DNA of 64,000 nucleotides from Escherichia phage JoYop. The notes beneath the pieces are model-generated. The model was not told the origin of the DNA and did not search any database. It saw only the letters and a program-made list of their open reading frames with translations. Positions within the stretch are counted from its first letter, which is position 1. Each line of letters starts with the position of its first letter. Both the position numbers and the translations under genes were made by a program. The stretch lies in sequence record OR769032.1; one strand, given 5' to 3'. Shown here piece by piece: positions 4,213-39,210 of this stretch.

Positions 4213-6909
4213 TCAGCCAAACAGGAAGTCTAACGAAGCTTTTTCTTCATAGTCCATACCTGCCGATTCACACATACCTGCAAGTGGTTTAACAAACGAT
4301 TTTTGGAACAAAGTTGAGTAGTCAATCCAAGATAGTACGTCAGAACGAATTTCCTTTGGAAGTTCTGTTCCCGATGGCCAAGCAATACACTTATCACCAA
4401 ATGGGTTTCCTTCACGTAATGGAAGAACCATTACTTTATTTCCATCCAAAATTGGAGCTACACCTAAACCGCTAACAGCTCGACGATAAGTTAGCACACC
4501 ACGAATATGGAACGGGCATTTAAATCCTGGCCAACCTTTATCATCGTATTTCGCTATATCGTTCGCAGTTTTTACTTCAGCAATAACTTTATAGTCAAGT
4601 TGACGATATTCTTTCTCAAAGTTCTTGTAATATTCTTGGACAGACTCTTCACCTTCCTGAAGAATACGACGAATACTTTCTTCGAGAGCTTCTTGTACTG
4701 CTTTTGGTGTTGAACTCTGTTGAGTTTCCATACCCATGATTTTTAGATGCGGTTCAGCAAATCGCTTATCTTCCATATCATAAACGTTCAGAGCATAACG
4801 CTTTTTCGCTTTCCAAAAACCACCGACACCCTTTGAACCAAGTGGAGGACAAGAAATAGCTTCACGGTCCATATGCATCAGATGCTCGCGGTTATTCATA
4901 TAATCACATAACTCACGATATGCAACATCAATCATAGGTTCCATCTTTTTCTTACCGAACTGATTCATGAATTCAACTAAATCATTTTGTTCTTTAAAGC
5001 GGTCAAGACCTACTTTTTCAATAACTTTATCTACGCAAACATATACCGAATCAGTGTCACCAGCTGCGATGAAGTCTTCACCATTAGTTCCACACACTTT
5101 ATTCAGATACTCATTAATTTTACGAGCAATCCACTGAATACCAACTTGGCCGAAAATTGTGATAGCAGTAGCATTTCGCAAATCATAGTAACGGAAATGA
5201 ATATTACCAAGAGCACCATAAAGACTGTTAATAAGAATTTTACGGTTCAGCTGATTTGTATTAGCAAGTGTAGCAGCTTTTTCACATTCTTCAATCAAAC
5301 TATTGAGAACAGATTCAGTATAATTCGATAGTTCATTTAAGAAATCATCACTGAACTTAACATATCGTTCAACTTCCGGTTTAGTTGAACAAGTCCCTGC
5401 GCCTTTCATAATAATTTTTTTAATAGCTTCGGCATTCATTTCTTCTGCGAACATTTTCTTTTTCCAGTCTTTACGTTGGAAAAATACTTTAGCGATTTCC
5501 TTTGGAATGATACCTTCTTGGTGCTTATCATACATCCATCCATTCGGAGAGCAAGAATATTCATCACTTGGCTTAGGAGCTGTTCCTGCGATATATTCAT
5601 GAATTGGATGAACTTTAAACTGACCACGAATAGTCTCAGGACTAATGTTAACCTGACGAATAATGCTCGGATACAGAGAAGTTAAGTCAAAACTCATAAT
5701 ATACCGACGAGCAATCGGTTTAGGTTCAAACACAAATGCACCCGGAAAACTCTGCTTAACGTGTGAACCTTGCTGAGGAATAACCTTATGTTCACCTTTC
5801 AGTGAGTTAAAAATAATAGCATCCCAAGTTTTAATAGGACTCATTACGCCAGAAAAAGGCATTTTAGCGTAATAAGACATACTTAAAACCAGATCGATAA
5901 ACCCACGAATTTTATCGATTGCTTGAACTGATTCTACGTCAATGATGTTATAACTAATGTATCGTTGATGATTAGTCTCACGAAGTTTATTAATAGGACC
6001 ATCGTACGGTAATTTACCTTTTTTGGTTTCATGTTGAGCAACTGATTCCAAAGAGAATGACGGCAAATTAGTAAACGCGAATTTCTTATACAAATCTAAA
6101 TAATCAAGAATAGATACGCCATCAATAGAATAAATTTCTTTGCTACCGTACATGTTTTGAATTAGTTTAGATTTTACTCGACCGATTGGGGAGAAGCGTT
6201 TCATACTGCGTTCACCAAGAACCATTTTAACACGATTCATGATATACGGAACGTCAAATCCCTCAATATTCCAACCAGTAAAAATAGCAGGTCGTTTCTG
6301 TTCCCAGAGATTAATATATTCCATGAGCATATCACGCTCATTATCAAATGGCATATAAATTACTCGGTCAAGAATTTCTTGAGGAACTTCATCACCACCT
6401 TCACAGTCAAGCTTAGCAGCTAATTTTGCATCCCATTTTGATACTGAGCCATACATTGAATTCAACAAATCAAAGACGTAAAAACGGTCGTCAATTGAAT
6501 CATAATGAGTGATAGCATCAATTTCATATTCTGCTTTCATTGGGTCAGGAAATTTATCACCAGTAACCTCAATGTCACAGTTAGCTACACGAACAAATTT
6601 TCGGTCATAAACAATTTCCGAACCGTATGTATCACTGATATAAGCGAGTTTAAAATCGTTCATACCGAGAGCTTCGAGACCGATGTCTTCCATTCGCTTC
6701 ATCCAGTCTCGTGCATCTTTCATTGATGGAAATTTTTGAGGAGCGCAGTTTTTACCATAGATGTCTTTGTATTTTGACTCTTCCTTACAATGCCTAAACA
6801 TAGTCGGAAGATATTCTACTTCACGAGTACGTTCCTTTCCATTTTCATCAATATAACGCTCAACAATGTTATTTCCGACTGTTTCGATAGAGATATAAAA
6901 TTCTTTCAT
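4213..6909 (-). CDS. 43: DNA polymerase (family B)
   Basis: 898 aa; same length and extensive identity to T4 gp43 as recalled (MKEFYISIETVGNNIVERYIDENGKER..., DTDS motif). Confidence 0.97.
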   Translation of the reverse strand: MKEFYISIETVGNNIVERYIDENGKERTREVEYLPTMFRHCKEESKYKDIYGKNCAPQKFPSMKDARDWMKRMEDIGLEALGMNDFKLAYISDTYGSEIVYDRKFVRVANCDIEVTGDKFPDPMKAEYEIDAITHYDSIDDRFYVFDLLNSMYGSVSKWDAKLAAKLDCEGGDEVPQEILDRVIYMPFDNERDMLMEYINLWEQKRPAIFTGWNIEGFDVPYIMNRVKMVLGERSMKRFSPIGRVKSKLIQNMYGSKEIYSIDGVSILDYLDLYKKFAFTNLPSFSLESVAQHETKKGKLPYDGPINKLRETNHQRYISYNIIDVESVQAIDKIRGFIDLVLSMSYYAKMPFSGVMSPIKTWDAIIFNSLKGEHKVIPQQGSHVKQSFPGAFVFEPKPIARRYIMSFDLTSLYPSIIRQVNISPETIRGQFKVHPIHEYIAGTAPKPSDEYSCSPNGWMYDKHQEGIIPKEIAKVFFQRKDWKKKMFAEEMNAEAIKKIIMKGAGTCSTKPEVERYVKFSDDFLNELSNYTESVLNSLIEECEKAATLANTNQLNRKILINSLYGALGNIHFRYYDLRNATAITIFGQVGIQWIARKINEYLNKVCGTNGEDFIAAGDTDSVYVCVDKVIEKVGLDRFKEQNDLVEFMNQFGKKKMEPMIDVAYRELCDYMNNREHLMHMDREAISCPPLGSKGVGGFWKAKKRYALNVYDMEDKRFAEPHLKIMGMETQQSSTPKAVQEALEESIRRILQEGEESVQEYYKNFEKEYRQLDYKVIAEVKTANDIAKYDDKGWPGFKCPFHIRGVLTYRRAVSGLGVAPILDGNKVMVLPLREGNPFGDKCIAWPSGTELPKEIRSDVLSWIDYSTLFQKSFVKPLAGMCESAGMDYEEKASLDFLFG

Positions 6910-35992: not shown

Positions 35993-36574
35993 CTAATCTA
36001 GCTTTTTAGTTAATTCGTTCCAATGTTTTCTACATAAAGATACGTAAATTTCATCACCAATACAAATTTGATCGCCTTCTTTAACTGGGGTTCCATCTTC
36101 CATTAATCGAGCGGTCATAATAGCTTTTTTACCACAGTGACAAACCGCTTTAAGCTCAATAAGTTTATCAGCAATCGCCAAAAGTTCTTTAGAACCTTCA
36201 AATAACTTTCCTGCGAAATCAGTTCTTAATCCATAAGCCATAACAGGAACATTATATGTATCAACAATTCGGCTTAATTGGTGTACTTGTTCAGTTTTTA
36301 AAAACTGAGCTTCATCTACAAATACGCAATGAATATCTTTTTGTGCTTCAGCCCATTTATAGAACTCGAAAATATCCATATCATCCGTAATAATATTCGC
36401 TTCCTGTTTAATTCCAATGCGAGAAACAACTTCACAAACAGAATCGCGAGTATCAATAGCAGGTTTAAGAACTAATACACCCATTCCACGTTCTTTATAA
36501 TTATGCGCAGCAGTCAAAAGAGAAGCAGATTTTCCAGCATTCATTGCTGCATAAGTAAAAATTAAACTCGCCAT
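35993..36574 (-). CDS. tk: thymidine kinase
   Basis: 193 aa; P-loop AAMNAGKS; matches T4 Tk as recalled. Confidence 0.93.
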   Translation of the reverse strand: MASLIFTYAAMNAGKSASLLTAAHNYKERGMGVLVLKPAIDTRDSVCEVVSRIGIKQEANIITDDMDIFEFYKWAEAQKDIHCVFVDEAQFLKTEQVHQLSRIVDTYNVPVMAYGLRTDFAGKLFEGSKELLAIADKLIELKAVCHCGKKAIMTARLMEDGTPVKEGDQICIGDEIYVSLCRKHWNELTKKLD

Positions 36575-36935: not shown

Positions 36936-37142
36936 TCATTTCGGTTTGCCTTCTTTAACGAAATCTGGATAAGGATAAAACCCCGAATAAAATCCTTCAC
37001 CTTTATGATTGATGCATCCTTTATTAGAACAATAGCACCAATAATCAAAATCACAAGCCATTTCATCATTACATAAAGCAAAGACAACTGGCCATTTACA
37101 CTTTCCACAATGGGCATTTTTAAGAATACTAGTTTGGCTCAT
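36936..37142 (-). CDS. cysteine-rich small protein
   Basis: About 68 aa from MSQTSILK; multiple CxxC-type pairs (CGKCKW...CYCSNKGC). Confidence 0.45.
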   Translation of the reverse strand: MSQTSILKNAHCGKCKWPVVFALCNDEMACDFDYWCYCSNKGCINHKGEGFYSGFYPYPDFVKEGKPK

Positions 37143-37351
37143 AACCATGTAACCTTTAAGCAATATTCTTCTACGTGTTGTTTACGACCTTTCTTATCAA
37201 TAAAAGTATATTCAACGAATGTTCCAATATAGTCTTTATCTACATCATGTGGACTATTAATTGGGCATTTAGTACGGCAAATGCGTTCCCATTGACGAAT
37301 AATTTCCACTTTGTTTTTAGGGTCAAATGGATGCGGGTAATGTGCTTTCAT
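37139..37351 (-). CDS. hypothetical protein
   Basis: 70-aa ORF. Confidence 0.45.
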   Translation of the reverse strand: MKAHYPHPFDPKNKVEIIRQWERICRTKCPINSPHDVDKDYIGTFVEYTFIDKKGRKQHVEEYCLKVTWL

Positions 37352-37802
37352 AATCTACCACTATTAAATCAATATCAGGAGTAAACATGTCGATTAATTT
37401 AGAAACCTTATCCCAATCACCGCCAGCAATACCACAACCTATACGTGGAATGTAAATTACCGGTTTAAACAAAAGGGTTTCTGCCTGCAGATTTAATTCT
37501 ATCATACAGTTTACTAAAGCACCATAATCAAGATTAGGACCTGGTTCATATTGCGTATACAGGTTGTAACATATGCCAAAACCATTAGGTTTATGTTTAA
37601 AAACTATAGACATATCACCGAGTTTTTCACGCGAACCATATTCAGTTGTAGTCTTATCTATTTCTAAAATTTTAGGATAAGCCCTTGCTAATTGACCAGC
37701 TACACCACTGCCCATCGTATGAAAACAGTTGCACCCGTGCGCAATAATATTACCTTCAAGAAAGAGGGCGACAATATCGCCCTTGATATATTTTACAATC
37801 AT
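37323..37802 (-). CDS. macro-domain-like protein (putative ADP-ribose binding or hydrolase)
   Basis: 159 aa; KGDIVALFLEGNIIAHGCNCFHTMGSGVAG and later IPRIGCGIAGGDW parallel the macro-domain GDIT...NAAN...GGGV and ...GxGxxG blocks. Confidence 0.5.
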   Translation of the reverse strand: MIVKYIKGDIVALFLEGNIIAHGCNCFHTMGSGVAGQLARAYPKILEIDKTTTEYGSREKLGDMSIVFKHKPNGFGICYNLYTQYEPGPNLDYGALVNCMIELNLQAETLLFKPVIYIPRIGCGIAGGDWDKVSKLIDMFTPDIDLIVVDYESTLPASI

Positions 37803-38146
37803 CTAGTACTCAATCCTCGATTATAAGAATCTACTAAACGGTCAACCATTGAACGACAAGCGGCTTTGTCTTTTTCCTCCGCAACTGAACATTCTAAGGT
37901 ATTCCACTTTTTAGCATATCGTTTTAATAATGTATCGTTTTTGTATCTACTTGTTTTATCTCTTTCTCCGTCTTTATATGCATATATTAATTTCTGCGCA
38001 AACTCAGATTGACATGCTTTATTTTTCCCACAATAATCTGCCGCAGTGCGGTTCACATACTCCCTAATTTCAGTATATGATGTATCTGCTGACGCATAAG
38101 CAGAAAATGAAATTAATCCTATACATAAAACCAAAATTTTAGTCAT
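37799..38146 (-). CDS. secreted cysteine-containing protein (T4 vs position)
   Basis: 115 aa; N-terminal signal peptide MTKILVLCIGLISFSAYASA; four Cys. Confidence 0.55.
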   Translation of the reverse strand: MTKILVLCIGLISFSAYASADTSYTEIREYVNRTAADYCGKNKACQSEFAQKLIYAYKDGERDKTSRYKNDTLLKRYAKKWNTLECSVAEEKDKAACRSMVDRLVDSYNRGLSTR

Positions 38147-38684
38147 TTACTATTTCCAAAAGTTTATTATTTTTAAGGTAATTAGCCTTTTCTAGGACTT
38201 CAGAAGCATATTTAGAACCTGCTTTAACATTCCATCCCGAATTATAAGAGGATATTGCTTTTCTTATATCGCCCTTATGTATATTTAACCAATAAGAAAG
38301 TTCAATGTACGCCCATGAAGCTGAATTGGATCGTTTATTCAACATTCTTTTTATTTCAGCATCGGTCATATTATAACCAAGTTCCTTAACTCTTGCTCTC
38401 ATAGTAGGCAAATAATTTTGGAACATTCCATAAGCGTGATGCTTTGGTTTAGATTTTAAATTAACTCCGCCAGAGCTTTCTTGCCATAAAATGGCTGCCA
38501 TTATATGACCTAATCCACTCTTATGAACATTTTGGTGTGTTTTATATTTTCCATCCTTAGAAAACTGTTCCCCGAATTGATACGCGTAACGCATGTTATC
38601 GAGTTGGACATTACTGAAAGTATGCTCGGAGCTATGTGCCATCATTGAAATGGCCAATAGACCAGCGAGTAGTGCTTTTCTCAT
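38139..38684 (-). CDS. secreted lytic-transglycosylase-like protein
   Basis: 181 aa; signal peptide; AAILWQESSGG resembles the SLT catalytic Glu-Ser block. Confidence 0.55.
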   Translation of the reverse strand: MRKALLAGLLAISMMAHSSEHTFSNVQLDNMRYAYQFGEQFSKDGKYKTHQNVHKSGLGHIMAAILWQESSGGVNLKSKPKHHAYGMFQNYLPTMRARVKELGYNMTDAEIKRMLNKRSNSASWAYIELSYWLNIHKGDIRKAISSYNSGWNVKAGSKYASEVLEKANYLKNNKLLEIVND

Positions 38685-38691
38685 GTTTGCC

Positions 38692-39153
38692 TCATTGAGT
38701 TTTAATTACTGCTTTAGAAGCCTTTCCTGGTAAACGACGACTGTTGATAATTGCCATCCTGCATTGAAGTGACGGGTCTTTGAACTTCTCATTAGGTTTA
38801 CAAACCGTAAATCCAAGCCAAAGATTTCCATCAGTGATTTCTAAACGTCCAGGGCGATATTCAATTCCATCGATAAAATCTTCATCAATATCAGGACGCG
38901 GAGGCATACTCAGGAATTCATTAACTTCTAAAACATGGTCTTTTATTTTATGGAATAATTCAAAAACATATGTCTCATCAATCTCCCGTTGAATTGCACG
39001 ATCAAGAAGATGCTGAGAATATTTTAGATGAAACGATGAGACCCCTGCTGCTTTTGATGCCTCACGAATCTCATTGTTAATTTGACGAAACTCCGACTCA
39101 AAGTGACGACGAAGCTTATTTCGACGGATAAAAACTTCTGTGTTGATAGTCAT
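38692..39153 (-). CDS. regB: RegB site-specific endoribonuclease
   Basis: 153 aa; matches T4 RegB in length and position; sequence consistent with recall. Confidence 0.85.
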   Translation of the reverse strand: MTINTEVFIRRNKLRRHFESEFRQINNEIREASKAAGVSSFHLKYSQHLLDRAIQREIDETYVFELFHKIKDHVLEVNEFLSMPPRPDIDEDFIDGIEYRPGRLEITDGNLWLGFTVCKPNEKFKDPSLQCRMAIINSRRLPGKASKAVIKTQ

Positions 39154-39179: not shown

Positions 39180-39210
39180 AATTATACCACAGTCAAGAGG
39201 AAAAGTAAAC
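39180..39210 (-). promoter_or_regulatory. T4-type early promoter upstream of regB
   Basis: GTTTAC 39205-39210 with tggtataat-like -10. Confidence 0.5.

What the first reader, a model, noticed from the sequence alone, without database searches (positions are those of the whole stretch)
37323..37802. Macro-domain-like protein in the tk-vs interval
The 159-aa ORF has two blocks that parallel macro-domain signatures (GDIV...IIAHGCNC...MGSGVAG near the N-terminus and IPRIGCGIAGG near the C-terminus). Macro domains bind or remove ADP-ribose. T-even phages ADP-ribosylate host proteins and some host defences ADP-ribosylate phage DNA, so a phage macro domain could tune or reverse such marks.
Basis: partly seen in the sequence, partly recalled or inferred. 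Interest (0 to 1): 0.65.

Follow-up and report, generated by a model that had tools for sequence, protein, structure and literature searches.

The report
Phage macrodomain Tk.4/AdfM, anti-DarTG2 factor

Summary

It sits in the vs | tk.4 | tk.3 slot of a T4-like (Tequatrovirus) genome and is the positional orthologue of T4 Tk.4. A 2025 preprint (10.1101/2025.11.20.689424) found tk.4 as the only transposon-screen hit on DarTG2, showed that a clean knockout sensitises T4, and named the gene adfM.

Three points go beyond that:
- This allele is only 58% identical to T4's, while flanking genes are 93-99% identical. The divergence is old (dS about 1.35; dN/dS 0.28), which points to a swapped-in allele rather than rapid local evolution.
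- The family has an invariant Gln84 where DarG and TARG1 have their catalytic Lys, as in Streptomyces SCO6735, which cleaves thymidine-linked ADP-ribose.
- Eighty bacterial relatives are stand-alone and none has a DarT nearby.

No enzymology exists for any Tk.4-type protein. Verdict: new member of a known kind; modest interest.

The parts
37323..37802 (-). tk.4 / adfM-type gene: a 159-aa stand-alone macrodomain protein
37692..37745 (-). Residues 20-37, IAHGCNCFHTMGSGVAGQ: strand beta-2 and the Gly-rich loop 1 of the ADP-ribose cleft
   Evidence: H22, G23, N25, C26, G33 and A35 are invariant in 62 family members. N25 aligns with the Asn of DarG and of PhiKZ AdfM (N23, whose N23A mutant has reduced activity). 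H22 aligns with Poa1p H23, which is mutated in PDB 6lfs. SCO6735 His24 and Asn27 are functionally important (PMC9411070).
37551..37565 (-). Residues 80-84, NLYTQ: Gln84 occupies the position of the catalytic Lys of TARG1 (K84) and DarG (K80)
   Evidence: N80, Y82 and Q84 are invariant in 62 of 62 members. The profile alignment places the family's T-Q on TARG1 T83-K84. The multiple alignment places it on the FPTK motif of both DarGs and of PhiKZ AdfM. SCO6735 has Gln85 at this position and Q85A is inactive (PMC9411070).
37413..37448 (-). Residues 119-130, PRIGCGIAGGDW: phosphate-binding loop 2
   Evidence: P119, G122, G124 and W130 are invariant. The motif is almost identical to BT1257 PRIGCGLAGGKW and SCO6735 PRIGCGLAGGTW. 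A126 aligns with TARG1 D125. T4's allele carries the minority variant PRIGAGIGKGNW.
37799..37802 (-). ATGA overlap: the tk.4 start codon overlaps the vs stop codon
   Evidence: Coordinates and sequence. The same arrangement occurs in T4 and in Dhakavirus and Karamvirus relatives, all with a 4-nt overlap. In Mosigvirus AlbertHofmann the annotated overlap is 8 nt. Co-transcription and translational coupling with vs are inferred.
37323..37351 (-). 29-nt overlap of the tk.4 3' end with the start of tk.3 (DUF7202). It encodes the low-confidence tail YESTLPASI.
   Evidence: A 13-nt indel relative to T4. The last block of the model has pLDDT 67. Dhakavirus alleles show the same 29-nt overlap.
37765..37783 (-). 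Perfect 8-bp hairpin (AGGGCGA-tat-TGTCGCCCT) inside codons 7-13 of tk.4. Its function is unknown and it may not belong to the protein's function.
   Evidence: Flagged by the terminator-like scan. The stem is conserved in T4, Mosigvirus and Dhakavirus and lost in Karamvirus. The fold z-score is only -1.9.

Best explanation
The gene is this phage's version of T4 tk.4 (adfM). It encodes a small, stand-alone macrodomain of the TARG1-like (ALC1-like) class and is made from the vs/regB early-gene cluster.

Proposed mechanism: during infection of hosts that carry DarTG2, the toxin DarT2 attaches ADP-ribose to thymidine in single-stranded phage DNA (TNTC motifs) and blocks replication. The phage protein binds the ADP-ribose in its cleft, formed by loop 1 (HGCNC...MGSGVAG) and loop 2 (PRIGCGIAGGDW). 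It hydrolyses the ribose-thymine bond, releasing ADP-ribose and restoring replicable DNA. It therefore acts like an orphan antitoxin.

Chemistry is most likely of the SCO6735 type. Gln84, positioned by Asn25 and His22, would orient the distal ribose and a water molecule. The Lys-based chemistry of DarG and TARG1 is unlikely because that Lys is absent.

Shown here: macro fold, class, motif conservation, positional orthology and allele divergence. Shown in the literature for the T4 allele only: requirement for DarTG2 resistance. Inferred: that this 58%-identical allele does the same, that it acts by hydrolysis, and the roles of individual residues.
For: - Macro family membership: Pfam above its cut-off.
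- DarG resemblance: the PADLOC DarG model matches on its macro portion at E=3.5e-7.
- Orthology: same slot as T4 tk.4, 58% identity, E=6e-70.
- T4 genetics: tk.4 was the sole DarTG2 hit and the knockout is sensitive (10.1101/2025.11.20.689424). T4 lacking adfA and adfN stays DarTG2-resistant (PMC11825919).
- Active site: all candidate residues (H22, G23, N25, Q84, G122, G124) are invariant in 62 relatives, including both alleles.
- Precedent for a Gln-type enzyme: SCO6735 cleaves thymidine-linked ADP-ribose and protects against DarT, and Q85A is inactive (PMC9411070).
- Precedent in phages: the macrodomain PhiKZ gp104 removes DarT2 marks in vitro (PMC13309987).
- Selection: dN/dS of 0.28 shows both alleles are under purifying selection.
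Against: - No biochemical assay exists for any Tk.4-type protein.
- The genetic evidence is a preprint on the T4 allele, which differs at 42% of residues and carries an atypical loop 2, GAGIGKGNW, where this protein has GCGIAGGDW.
- The catalytic Lys of DarG and TARG1 is missing, so the DarG analogy does not transfer residue for residue.
- The closest solved relatives include Poa1p, an ADP-ribose-1''-phosphate phosphatase, and BT1257, whose function is unknown.
- The residue equivalence to SCO6735 Gln85 is transitive, through TARG1 K84. I could not obtain a direct printed alignment of that region.
Confidence: 0.7

Rival explanations
1. The protein protects against DarTG2 mainly by binding and inhibiting the DarT2 toxin, or by shielding ADP-ribosylated DNA, rather than by hydrolysing the mark.
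For: Catalytically dead SCO6735 (Q85A), DarG (K80A) and TARG1 (K84A) all inhibit DarT activity in vitro, and SCO6735 does so most strongly (PMC9411070). No hydrolase assay exists for Tk.4.
Against: The protein lacks the C-terminal DarT-binding domain of DarG. It is 159 aa, and the NCBIfam DarG model scores 28 bits against a cut-off of 250. The complete invariance of the cleft residues H22, N25 and Q84 across 62 relatives from many phage genera fits a conserved small-ligand chemistry better than binding to diverse toxins. The 42% divergence between alleles leaves those residues untouched.
Confidence: 0.1
2. Its primary substrate is a soluble ADP-ribose derivative rather than ADP-ribosylated DNA. 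Candidates are ADP-ribose-1''-phosphate, O-acetyl-ADP-ribose, or an ADPr-derived immune signal or toxin. This is the meaning of the legacy annotations 'phosphatase' and 'Appr-1-p processing'.
Against: The T4 knockout phenotype is specific to DarTG2, a DNA-modifying system. The 'phosphatase' label is a homology transfer, not an assay. The two activities are not exclusive, so this reading may hold as a secondary function.
Confidence: 0.08
3. This divergent allele has a shifted specificity. It may counter a different DarT variant or another base-linked nucleic-acid ADP-ribosylation, such as uracil in RNA, and the several tk.4 allele classes in T-even phages reflect matching to different host toxins.
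For: tk.4 is a sharp divergence outlier: 57% aa identity against 93-99% for nine... (eight) neighbouring genes compared. At least three allele classes are each found in more than 150 phage records. dN/dS of 0.28 is 4-17 times that of the neighbours. Loop 2 differs between alleles. SCO6735-type enzymes also remove uracil-linked ADPr from RNA (PMC13036486). T-even phages carry layered anti-DarT factors (PMC11825919).
Against: dS is saturated (1.35) and dN/dS is below 1, which is what ordinary exchange of old alleles in T-even hyperplastic regions produces. All cleft residues are identical between the alleles. A glycohydrolase that acts on the mark should not depend on which toxin placed it.
Confidence: 0.1
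4. It reverses or tunes the phage's own ADP-ribosylation (Alt, ModA, ModB) or ModB RNAylation of host proteins.
Against: From established knowledge, Alt/ModA/ModB modify arginine, and Arg-ADPr is typically removed by ARH/DraG-type enzymes rather than TARG1-like macrodomains. The tk.4 knockout phenotype appeared only in the presence of DarTG2. Homologues are widespread, in 2,768 phage records, including genera such as PhiW-14, felixO1-like and Bacillus phages that I did not check for Alt/Mod homologues.
Confidence: 0.02

Closest known systems
Phage T4 Tk.4 = AdfM (anti-DarT factor Macrodomain; NP_049723; bioRxiv 10.1101/2025.11.20.689424)
   Same: Same genomic slot (vs | tk.4 | tk.3), same length class, collinear gapless alignment over 155 aa at 58% identity (E=6e-70), and identical candidate active-site residues H22, G23, N25, Q84, G122 and G124.
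   Different: 42% of residues differ while the flanking genes are 93-99% identical. Loop 2 is the family consensus GCGIAGGDW here and GAGIGKGNW in T4. A 13-nt indel gives this allele a 4-residue longer tail and a 29-nt overlap with tk.3. The anti-DarTG2 phenotype has been tested only for the T4 allele.
Streptomyces coelicolor SCO6735 (PDB 5e3b) and Bacteroides BT1257 (PDB 2afc, 2fg1): stand-alone Gln-type TARG1-like macrodomains
   Different: They are cellular, not viral, and about 25-30% identical. SCO6735 has a longer mobile loop with Lys89 and Lys94. I could not align that loop directly.
DarG (DarG2) antitoxin macrodomain of DarTG2 (T. aquaticus 5m31/5m3e, M. tuberculosis 5m3i)
   Different: DarG has a catalytic Lys (FPTK), which is Gln here. 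DarG carries a C-terminal DarT-binding domain (about 330-340 aa in total) and is encoded next to darT. The NCBIfam DarG equivalog model scores 28 bits against a cut-off of 250.
PhiKZ gp104, also named AdfM (Cell Rep 2026, PMC13309987)
   Same: A phage-encoded stand-alone macrodomain that counters DarTG2. De-ADP-ribosylation of DarT2-modified DNA was shown in vitro.
   Different: It belongs to a different subfamily. gp104 is DarG-like (E=9e-25 to M. tuberculosis DarG) and keeps the catalytic Lys (FPTKDNW). It is only remotely related to Tk.4 (pairwise BLAST 23 bits; hhalign E=1e-9). It is imported into the phage nucleus.
Human TARG1/OARD1 and yeast Poa1p
   Different: The TARG1 catalytic dyad K84/D125 is Q84/A126 here. 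Poa1p is characterised as an ADP-ribose-1''-phosphate phosphatase.
T4 AdfN (gene 30.3, NADAR)
   Same: A functional analogue: an orphan antitoxin-like glycohydrolase of T-even phages that removes DarT-placed ADP-ribose from DNA (PMC11825919).
   Different: It has an unrelated fold (NADAR), is specific for guanine marks from DarT1, and does not counter DarTG2.

Membership tests
Macro domain (Pfam PF01661) | Profile score above the curated gathering threshold over most of the domain | tested here: met
   34.4 bits against a cut-off of 22, E=2.4e-8, profile positions 2-117 of 118.
Macro domain (Pfam PF01661) | Alpha/beta/alpha sandwich macro fold | tested here: met
Macro domain (Pfam PF01661) | Gly-rich loop after strand 2 (GxG) and a second phosphate-binding Gly-rich loop lining the ADP-ribose cleft | tested here: met
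   MGSGVAG (30-36) and PRIGCGIAGG (119-128). G33, G122 and G124 are invariant in 62 relatives.
Macro domain (Pfam PF01661) | Binds ADP-ribose | not testable with these tools
   Needs ITC, a thermal-shift assay or a co-crystal structure.
TARG1-like / ALC1-like macrodomain class | Closest structural neighbours are TARG1, DarG, Poa1p and SCO6735/BT1257 rather than MacroD-, PARG- or macroH2A-type domains | tested here: met
T4 Tk.4 / AdfM orthologous group | Full-length homology to T4 Tk.4 and the same genomic position between vs and tk.3 | tested here: met
   58% identity over 155 aa without gaps, E=6e-70. Flanking vs and tk.3 are 96% and 93% identical to their T4 counterparts.
T4 Tk.4 / AdfM orthologous group | Required for phage growth on DarTG2-expressing hosts | not testable with these tools
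   Shown for the T4 allele only (10.1101/2025.11.20.689424).
DarG (DarG2) antitoxin | Catalytic lysine (T. aquaticus K80) in the FPTK motif | tested here: not met
   The position is Gln84, invariant in 62 of 62 relatives.
DarG (DarG2) antitoxin | C-terminal DarT-binding domain, giving a protein of about 330-340 aa | tested here: not met
   The protein is 159 aa. The PADLOC DarG model matches only at its positions 3-144 of 329. The NCBIfam equivalog scores 28.1 bits against a cut-off of 250.
DarG (DarG2) antitoxin | Encoded next to a darT toxin gene | tested here: not met
   The neighbours are vs and tk.3. In addition, none of 80 bacterial loci encoding the closest cellular relatives has a DarT2 homologue within about 6 kb, by tblastn or by phmmer at E up to 10.
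SCO6735-type (Gln-type) thymidine-ADPr glycohydrolase | Gln at the catalytic-Lys position, plus the His-x-x-Asn motif and the GCGxAGG loop | tested here: met
   Q84, H22 and N25 are present, and GCGIAGG here matches GCGLAGG in SCO6735. Equivalence of the Gln is transitive via TARG1 K84. A direct alignment of that segment to 5e3b was not obtained.
SCO6735-type (Gln-type) thymidine-ADPr glycohydrolase | Hydrolyses thymidine-linked ADP-ribose on ssDNA | not testable with these tools
   Needs a gel-shift assay on DarT2-modified oligonucleotides.
Poa1p-type ADP-ribose-1''-phosphate phosphatase | Phosphatase activity on ADPr-1''-P | not testable with these tools

The most novel reading that the evidence does not exclude
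The tk.4/adfM slot of T-even phages is an allelic battleground. The window-type allele is 58% identical to T4's and has a consensus loop 2 where T4's is atypical. It may differ in substrate range or partner from T4 AdfM, for example in which DarT2 variants it counters or in acting on uracil-linked RNA ADP-ribosylation. The whole Tk.4 family was recruited from stand-alone Gln-type 'genome-guardian' macrodomains (SCO6735/BT1257-like) and not from DarG antitoxins. It would therefore use a Lys-independent mechanism, distinct from that of the other phage 'AdfM' (PhiKZ gp104).
Probability: 0.15. Interest if true: 0.5.

Novelty: new member of a known kind. Interest (0 to 1): 0.3.

Why it matters
The call assigns a concrete, testable anti-defence role to a gene that most records still annotate as 'hypothetical protein' or 'phosphatase', including records for close relatives of this phage.

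It also flags two points that the published T4 work does not address. First, T-even phages carry several deeply diverged tk.4 alleles inside otherwise near-identical flanks. Second, the family lacks the DarG/TARG1 catalytic lysine and resembles SCO6735, so its chemistry and evolutionary origin probably differ from DarG and from PhiKZ AdfM.

For phage therapy and host-range prediction, knowing which allele counters which DarT system would be useful. As a discovery, the main point has already been published.

Tried and rejected

2. In-situ positive selection as the cause of allele divergence: rejected. dN/dS is 0.28 and dS is saturated at 1.35, so the picture is old alleles exchanged by recombination.

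3. Origin from DarTG2 operons. No DarT2 homologue was found near 80 bacterial relatives by tblastn or phmmer, and there was no recurrent neighbour family. The limitation is that a single DarT2 query was used.

4. Hairpin at 37765-37783 as a terminator or attenuator. The stem is conserved in three genera, but the fold z-score is only -1.9 and the hairpin lies in a conserved coding stretch. This is left unresolved.

5. Promoter scan. The number of sigma-70-like sites is no higher than in shuffled sequence: 17 found against a mean of 17.3. No promoter is claimed, beyond noting a 10/12 match with an extended -10 upstream of regB.

7. The short ORFs on the opposite strand that overlap the gene (35-44 aa) have no support and were ignored.

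Full report
**1. The observation**

Window 37323..37802 holds an ATG-initiated 159-aa ORF on the minus strand. It lies in a tightly packed, co-directional block:
- regB (38692..39153)
- vs.1 (38139..38684; SLT domain)
- vs (37799..38146)
- this ORF
- tk.3 (37139..37351; DUF7202)
- a Phage_zn_bind ORF (36936..37163)
- two small ORFs
- tk (35993..36574)

The start codon overlaps the vs stop codon (ATGA), and the 3' end overlaps tk.3 by 29 nt. The region is 94-97% identical at the DNA level to many Tequatrovirus genomes. Short ORFs on the opposite strand (35-44 aa) have no support.

**2. It is a macrodomain**

- Pfam Macro (PF01661) matches at 34.4 bits (cut-off 22; E=2.4e-8) across profile positions 2-117 of 118.
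- PHROG 335 matches at 2.5e-71.
- Sequence searches of the PDB hit BT1257 (1e-10), yeast Poa1p (2e-9), SCO6735 (9e-8), M. tuberculosis DarG (1.2e-5) and human TARG1 (7e-3). A 62-member family profile raises these to 4e-20, 8e-15, 5e-16, 1e-11 and 4e-17.
- An AlphaFold2 model built on 61 homologues has pLDDT 94.5 and pTM 0.89. Only the last nine residues are uncertain.

The protein therefore belongs to the TARG1-like (ALC1-like) macrodomain class.

**3. It is the orthologue of T4 tk.4, whose function is already published**

In T4 (NC_000866) the gene between vs and tk.3 is tk.4, which is 155 aa and annotated 'phosphatase; contains A1pp phosphatase motif'. The two proteins align without gaps over 155 residues at 58% identity (E=6e-70).

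A November 2025 preprint (HIDEN-SEQ, 10.1101/2025.11.20.689424) reports that tk.4 was the single significant hit when a T4 transposon library was grown on DarTG2. It also reports that a clean knockout sensitises T4 to DarTG2, and it renamed the gene adfM, 'anti-DarT factor Macrodomain'. Enzymatic removal of ADP-ribose from DNA was proposed by analogy but not assayed.

Earlier work had shown that T4 lacking adfA and adfN remains DarTG2-resistant, and had predicted a further factor (PMC11825919). They are not new.

**4. What this window adds: a deeply diverged allele in conserved flanks**

Against T4, the eight neighbouring genes compared are 93-99% identical in protein (90-98% in DNA). tk.4 is 57% identical in protein and 68% in DNA. 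The first 50 nt or so of the gene are identical to T4. Divergence then runs up to the tk.3 start.

By the Nei-Gojobori method, dS is 1.35 (saturated) against 0.09-0.59 for the neighbours. dN/dS is 0.28 against 0.02-0.08. This is the signature of an old allele exchanged by recombination, under purifying but somewhat relaxed constraint. It is not the signature of local positive selection.

In the phage collection:
- 318 records carry an allele at least 90% identical to this one.
- 224 records carry a T4-type allele, at least 90% identical to T4.
- 159 records carry a type 80-90% identical to T4, for example Mosigvirus AlbertHofmann.
- The closest other type to the window allele is found in Dhakavirus, at 75% identity. 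It shares the 29-nt overlap with tk.3.

The gene keeps its position across Tequatro-, Mosig-, Dhaka- and Karamvirus.

**5. What this window adds: the active site is SCO6735-like, not DarG-like**

Across 62 relatives, fourteen residues are invariant: H22, G23, N25, C26, G33, A35, G62, N80, Y82, Q84, P119, G122, G124 and W130.

The profile alignment puts the family's T83-Q84 on TARG1 T83-K84, and A126 on TARG1 D125. A multiple alignment puts Q84 on the Lys of the FPTK motif of both DarG structures. So the Lys/Asp dyad of TARG1 and the catalytic Lys80 of DarG are both absent.

Exactly this situation has been described for Streptomyces SCO6735. It has Gln85 in place of the Lys, and Q85A is inactive. 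Asn27 and His24 are important. The enzyme efficiently cleaves thymidine-linked ADP-ribose and protects against DarT (PMC9411070). It also removes uracil-linked ADP-ribose from RNA (PMC13036486).

SCO6735 and BT1257 share the loop PRIGCGLAGGxW with this protein. T4's own allele has the minority variant PRIGAGIGKGNW, so the window allele is the more canonical of the two.

By contrast, the other phage protein named AdfM, PhiKZ gp104, has been shown biochemically to remove DarT2 marks (PMC13309987). It is a true DarG-like, Lys-type macrodomain (E=9e-25 to M. tuberculosis DarG; FPTKDNW motif). It is only remotely related to Tk.4. The two 'AdfM' proteins are therefore independent recruitments from different branches of the same class.

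**6. Origin**

The family is large. In the representative library, 6,227 clusters at 50% identity match at E of 1e-3 or less, and 2,768 phage records carry a homologue.

I fetched eighty bacterial loci that encode the closest cellular relatives (34-43% identity).
- The relatives are stand-alone proteins, mostly about 150 aa, though a minority of the ORFs are longer (up to 244 aa).
- 70 of the 80 have Gln at the key position.
- No DarT2 homologue lies within about 6 kb in 840 kb searched, by tblastn or by phmmer at E up to 10.
- No neighbour family recurs across the loci.

Within the limits of a single DarT2 query, this argues that Tk.4-type proteins derive from stand-alone SCO6735/BT1257-like macrodomains rather than from DarG antitoxins.

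**7. Mechanism proposed**

The protein is made from the early vs/regB gene cluster. Co-transcription and translational coupling are inferred from the ATGA overlap. It binds ADP-ribose attached by DarT2 to thymidine in single-stranded phage DNA and hydrolyses the linkage, which restores replication. Gln84, held in place by Asn25 and His22, would position the distal ribose and a water molecule.

Status of the evidence:
- Shown here: fold, class, motifs and orthology.
- Shown in the literature: the requirement for DarTG2 resistance (T4 allele only), and the enzymology of SCO6735, DarG and PhiKZ gp104.
- Inferred: the activity of this allele, and catalysis rather than toxin binding.

Confidence is 0.7.

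**8. Rivals**

- Stoichiometric inhibition of DarT2 (0.10). Dead SCO6735 inhibits DarT in vitro. However, this protein has no DarT-binding domain, and the cleft invariance favours catalysis.
- A soluble ADPr-derivative substrate, such as Appr1p, OAADPr or an immune signal (0.08). The support is the Poa1p similarity, the legacy 'phosphatase' labels and the argument in PMC9503650. This is possibly a secondary activity.
- Shifted specificity of this allele (0.10). See the novel case.
- Editing the phage's own Alt/Mod marks (0.02). No evidence supports it, and the arginine linkage is not typical for this macrodomain class.

**9. Verdict**

The function is already described for the T4 orthologue, so this is a new, divergent member of a known kind. 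Interest is modest (0.3). The residual value lies in three things: the allelic diversity at this locus, the Lys-less SCO6735-type active site, and the lack of any enzymology for Tk.4-type proteins.

Noticed in passing
window 37765-37783 (minus strand), inside codons 7-13 of tk.4: A perfect 8-bp G+C-rich hairpin (AGGGCGA-tat-TGTCGCCCT) lies just after the vs stop codon and was flagged as terminator-like. In T4 it is followed by TTTTCG. The stem is conserved in T4, Mosigvirus and Dhakavirus alleles despite their divergence elsewhere, and is lost in Karamvirus VPA32. It might attenuate or stabilise transcripts at the vs/tk.4 junction, or it may simply reflect the conserved KGDIVAL coding stretch. 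The fold z-score is only -1.9.
   Followed up: partly
window 36936-37163 (minus strand): A Cys-rich 75-aa ORF matches Pfam PF23895 'Phage zinc binding domain' (E=9e-29). It sits between the tk.2-like ORF and tk.3. T4 has no gene at this position, and the DNA alignment with T4 breaks down here.
   Followed up: partly
window 37323-37802 compared with L002 (T4) 4923-5390, and the flanking genes: There is a sharp mosaic boundary. vs is 95% identical in DNA and the first 50 nt or so of tk.4 are identical to T4. Identity then falls to 68% across tk.4 and returns to 90% in tk.3. At least three tk.4 allele classes are each present in more than 150 phage records, and they cross genus boundaries.
   Followed up: yes
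window 37323-37351: A 13-nt indel relative to T4 removes T4's stop codon context. tk.4 therefore reads 29 nt into tk.3 and ends in a low-confidence tail (YESTLPASI). Dhakavirus alleles share this arrangement.
   Followed up: partly
window 37799-38146 (vs) and 38139-38684 (vs.1): The upstream neighbour vs (valyl-tRNA synthetase modifier) was the most strongly depleted T4 gene in minimal medium in the same HIDEN-SEQ preprint. vs.1 carries an SLT lytic-transglycosylase domain (E=1.5e-5), although most records call it hypothetical.
   Followed up: no
window 39181-39209 (minus strand): A sigma-70-like site TTTACT-17-TATAAT with an extended -10 TG (10 of 12 matches) lies just upstream of regB. It is a candidate early promoter for the regB, vs.1, vs, tk.4 block. 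The overall count of promoter-like sites is no higher than in shuffled sequence, so this is weak evidence.
   Followed up: no
literature (PMC13309987 and bioRxiv 10.1101/2025.11.20.689424): Two unrelated phage macrodomain lineages have both been given the name AdfM. PhiKZ gp104 is DarG-like and Lys-type. T4 Tk.4 is SCO6735/BT1257-like and Gln-type. They are only remotely related (pairwise BLAST 23 bits; hhalign E=1e-9).
   Followed up: yes
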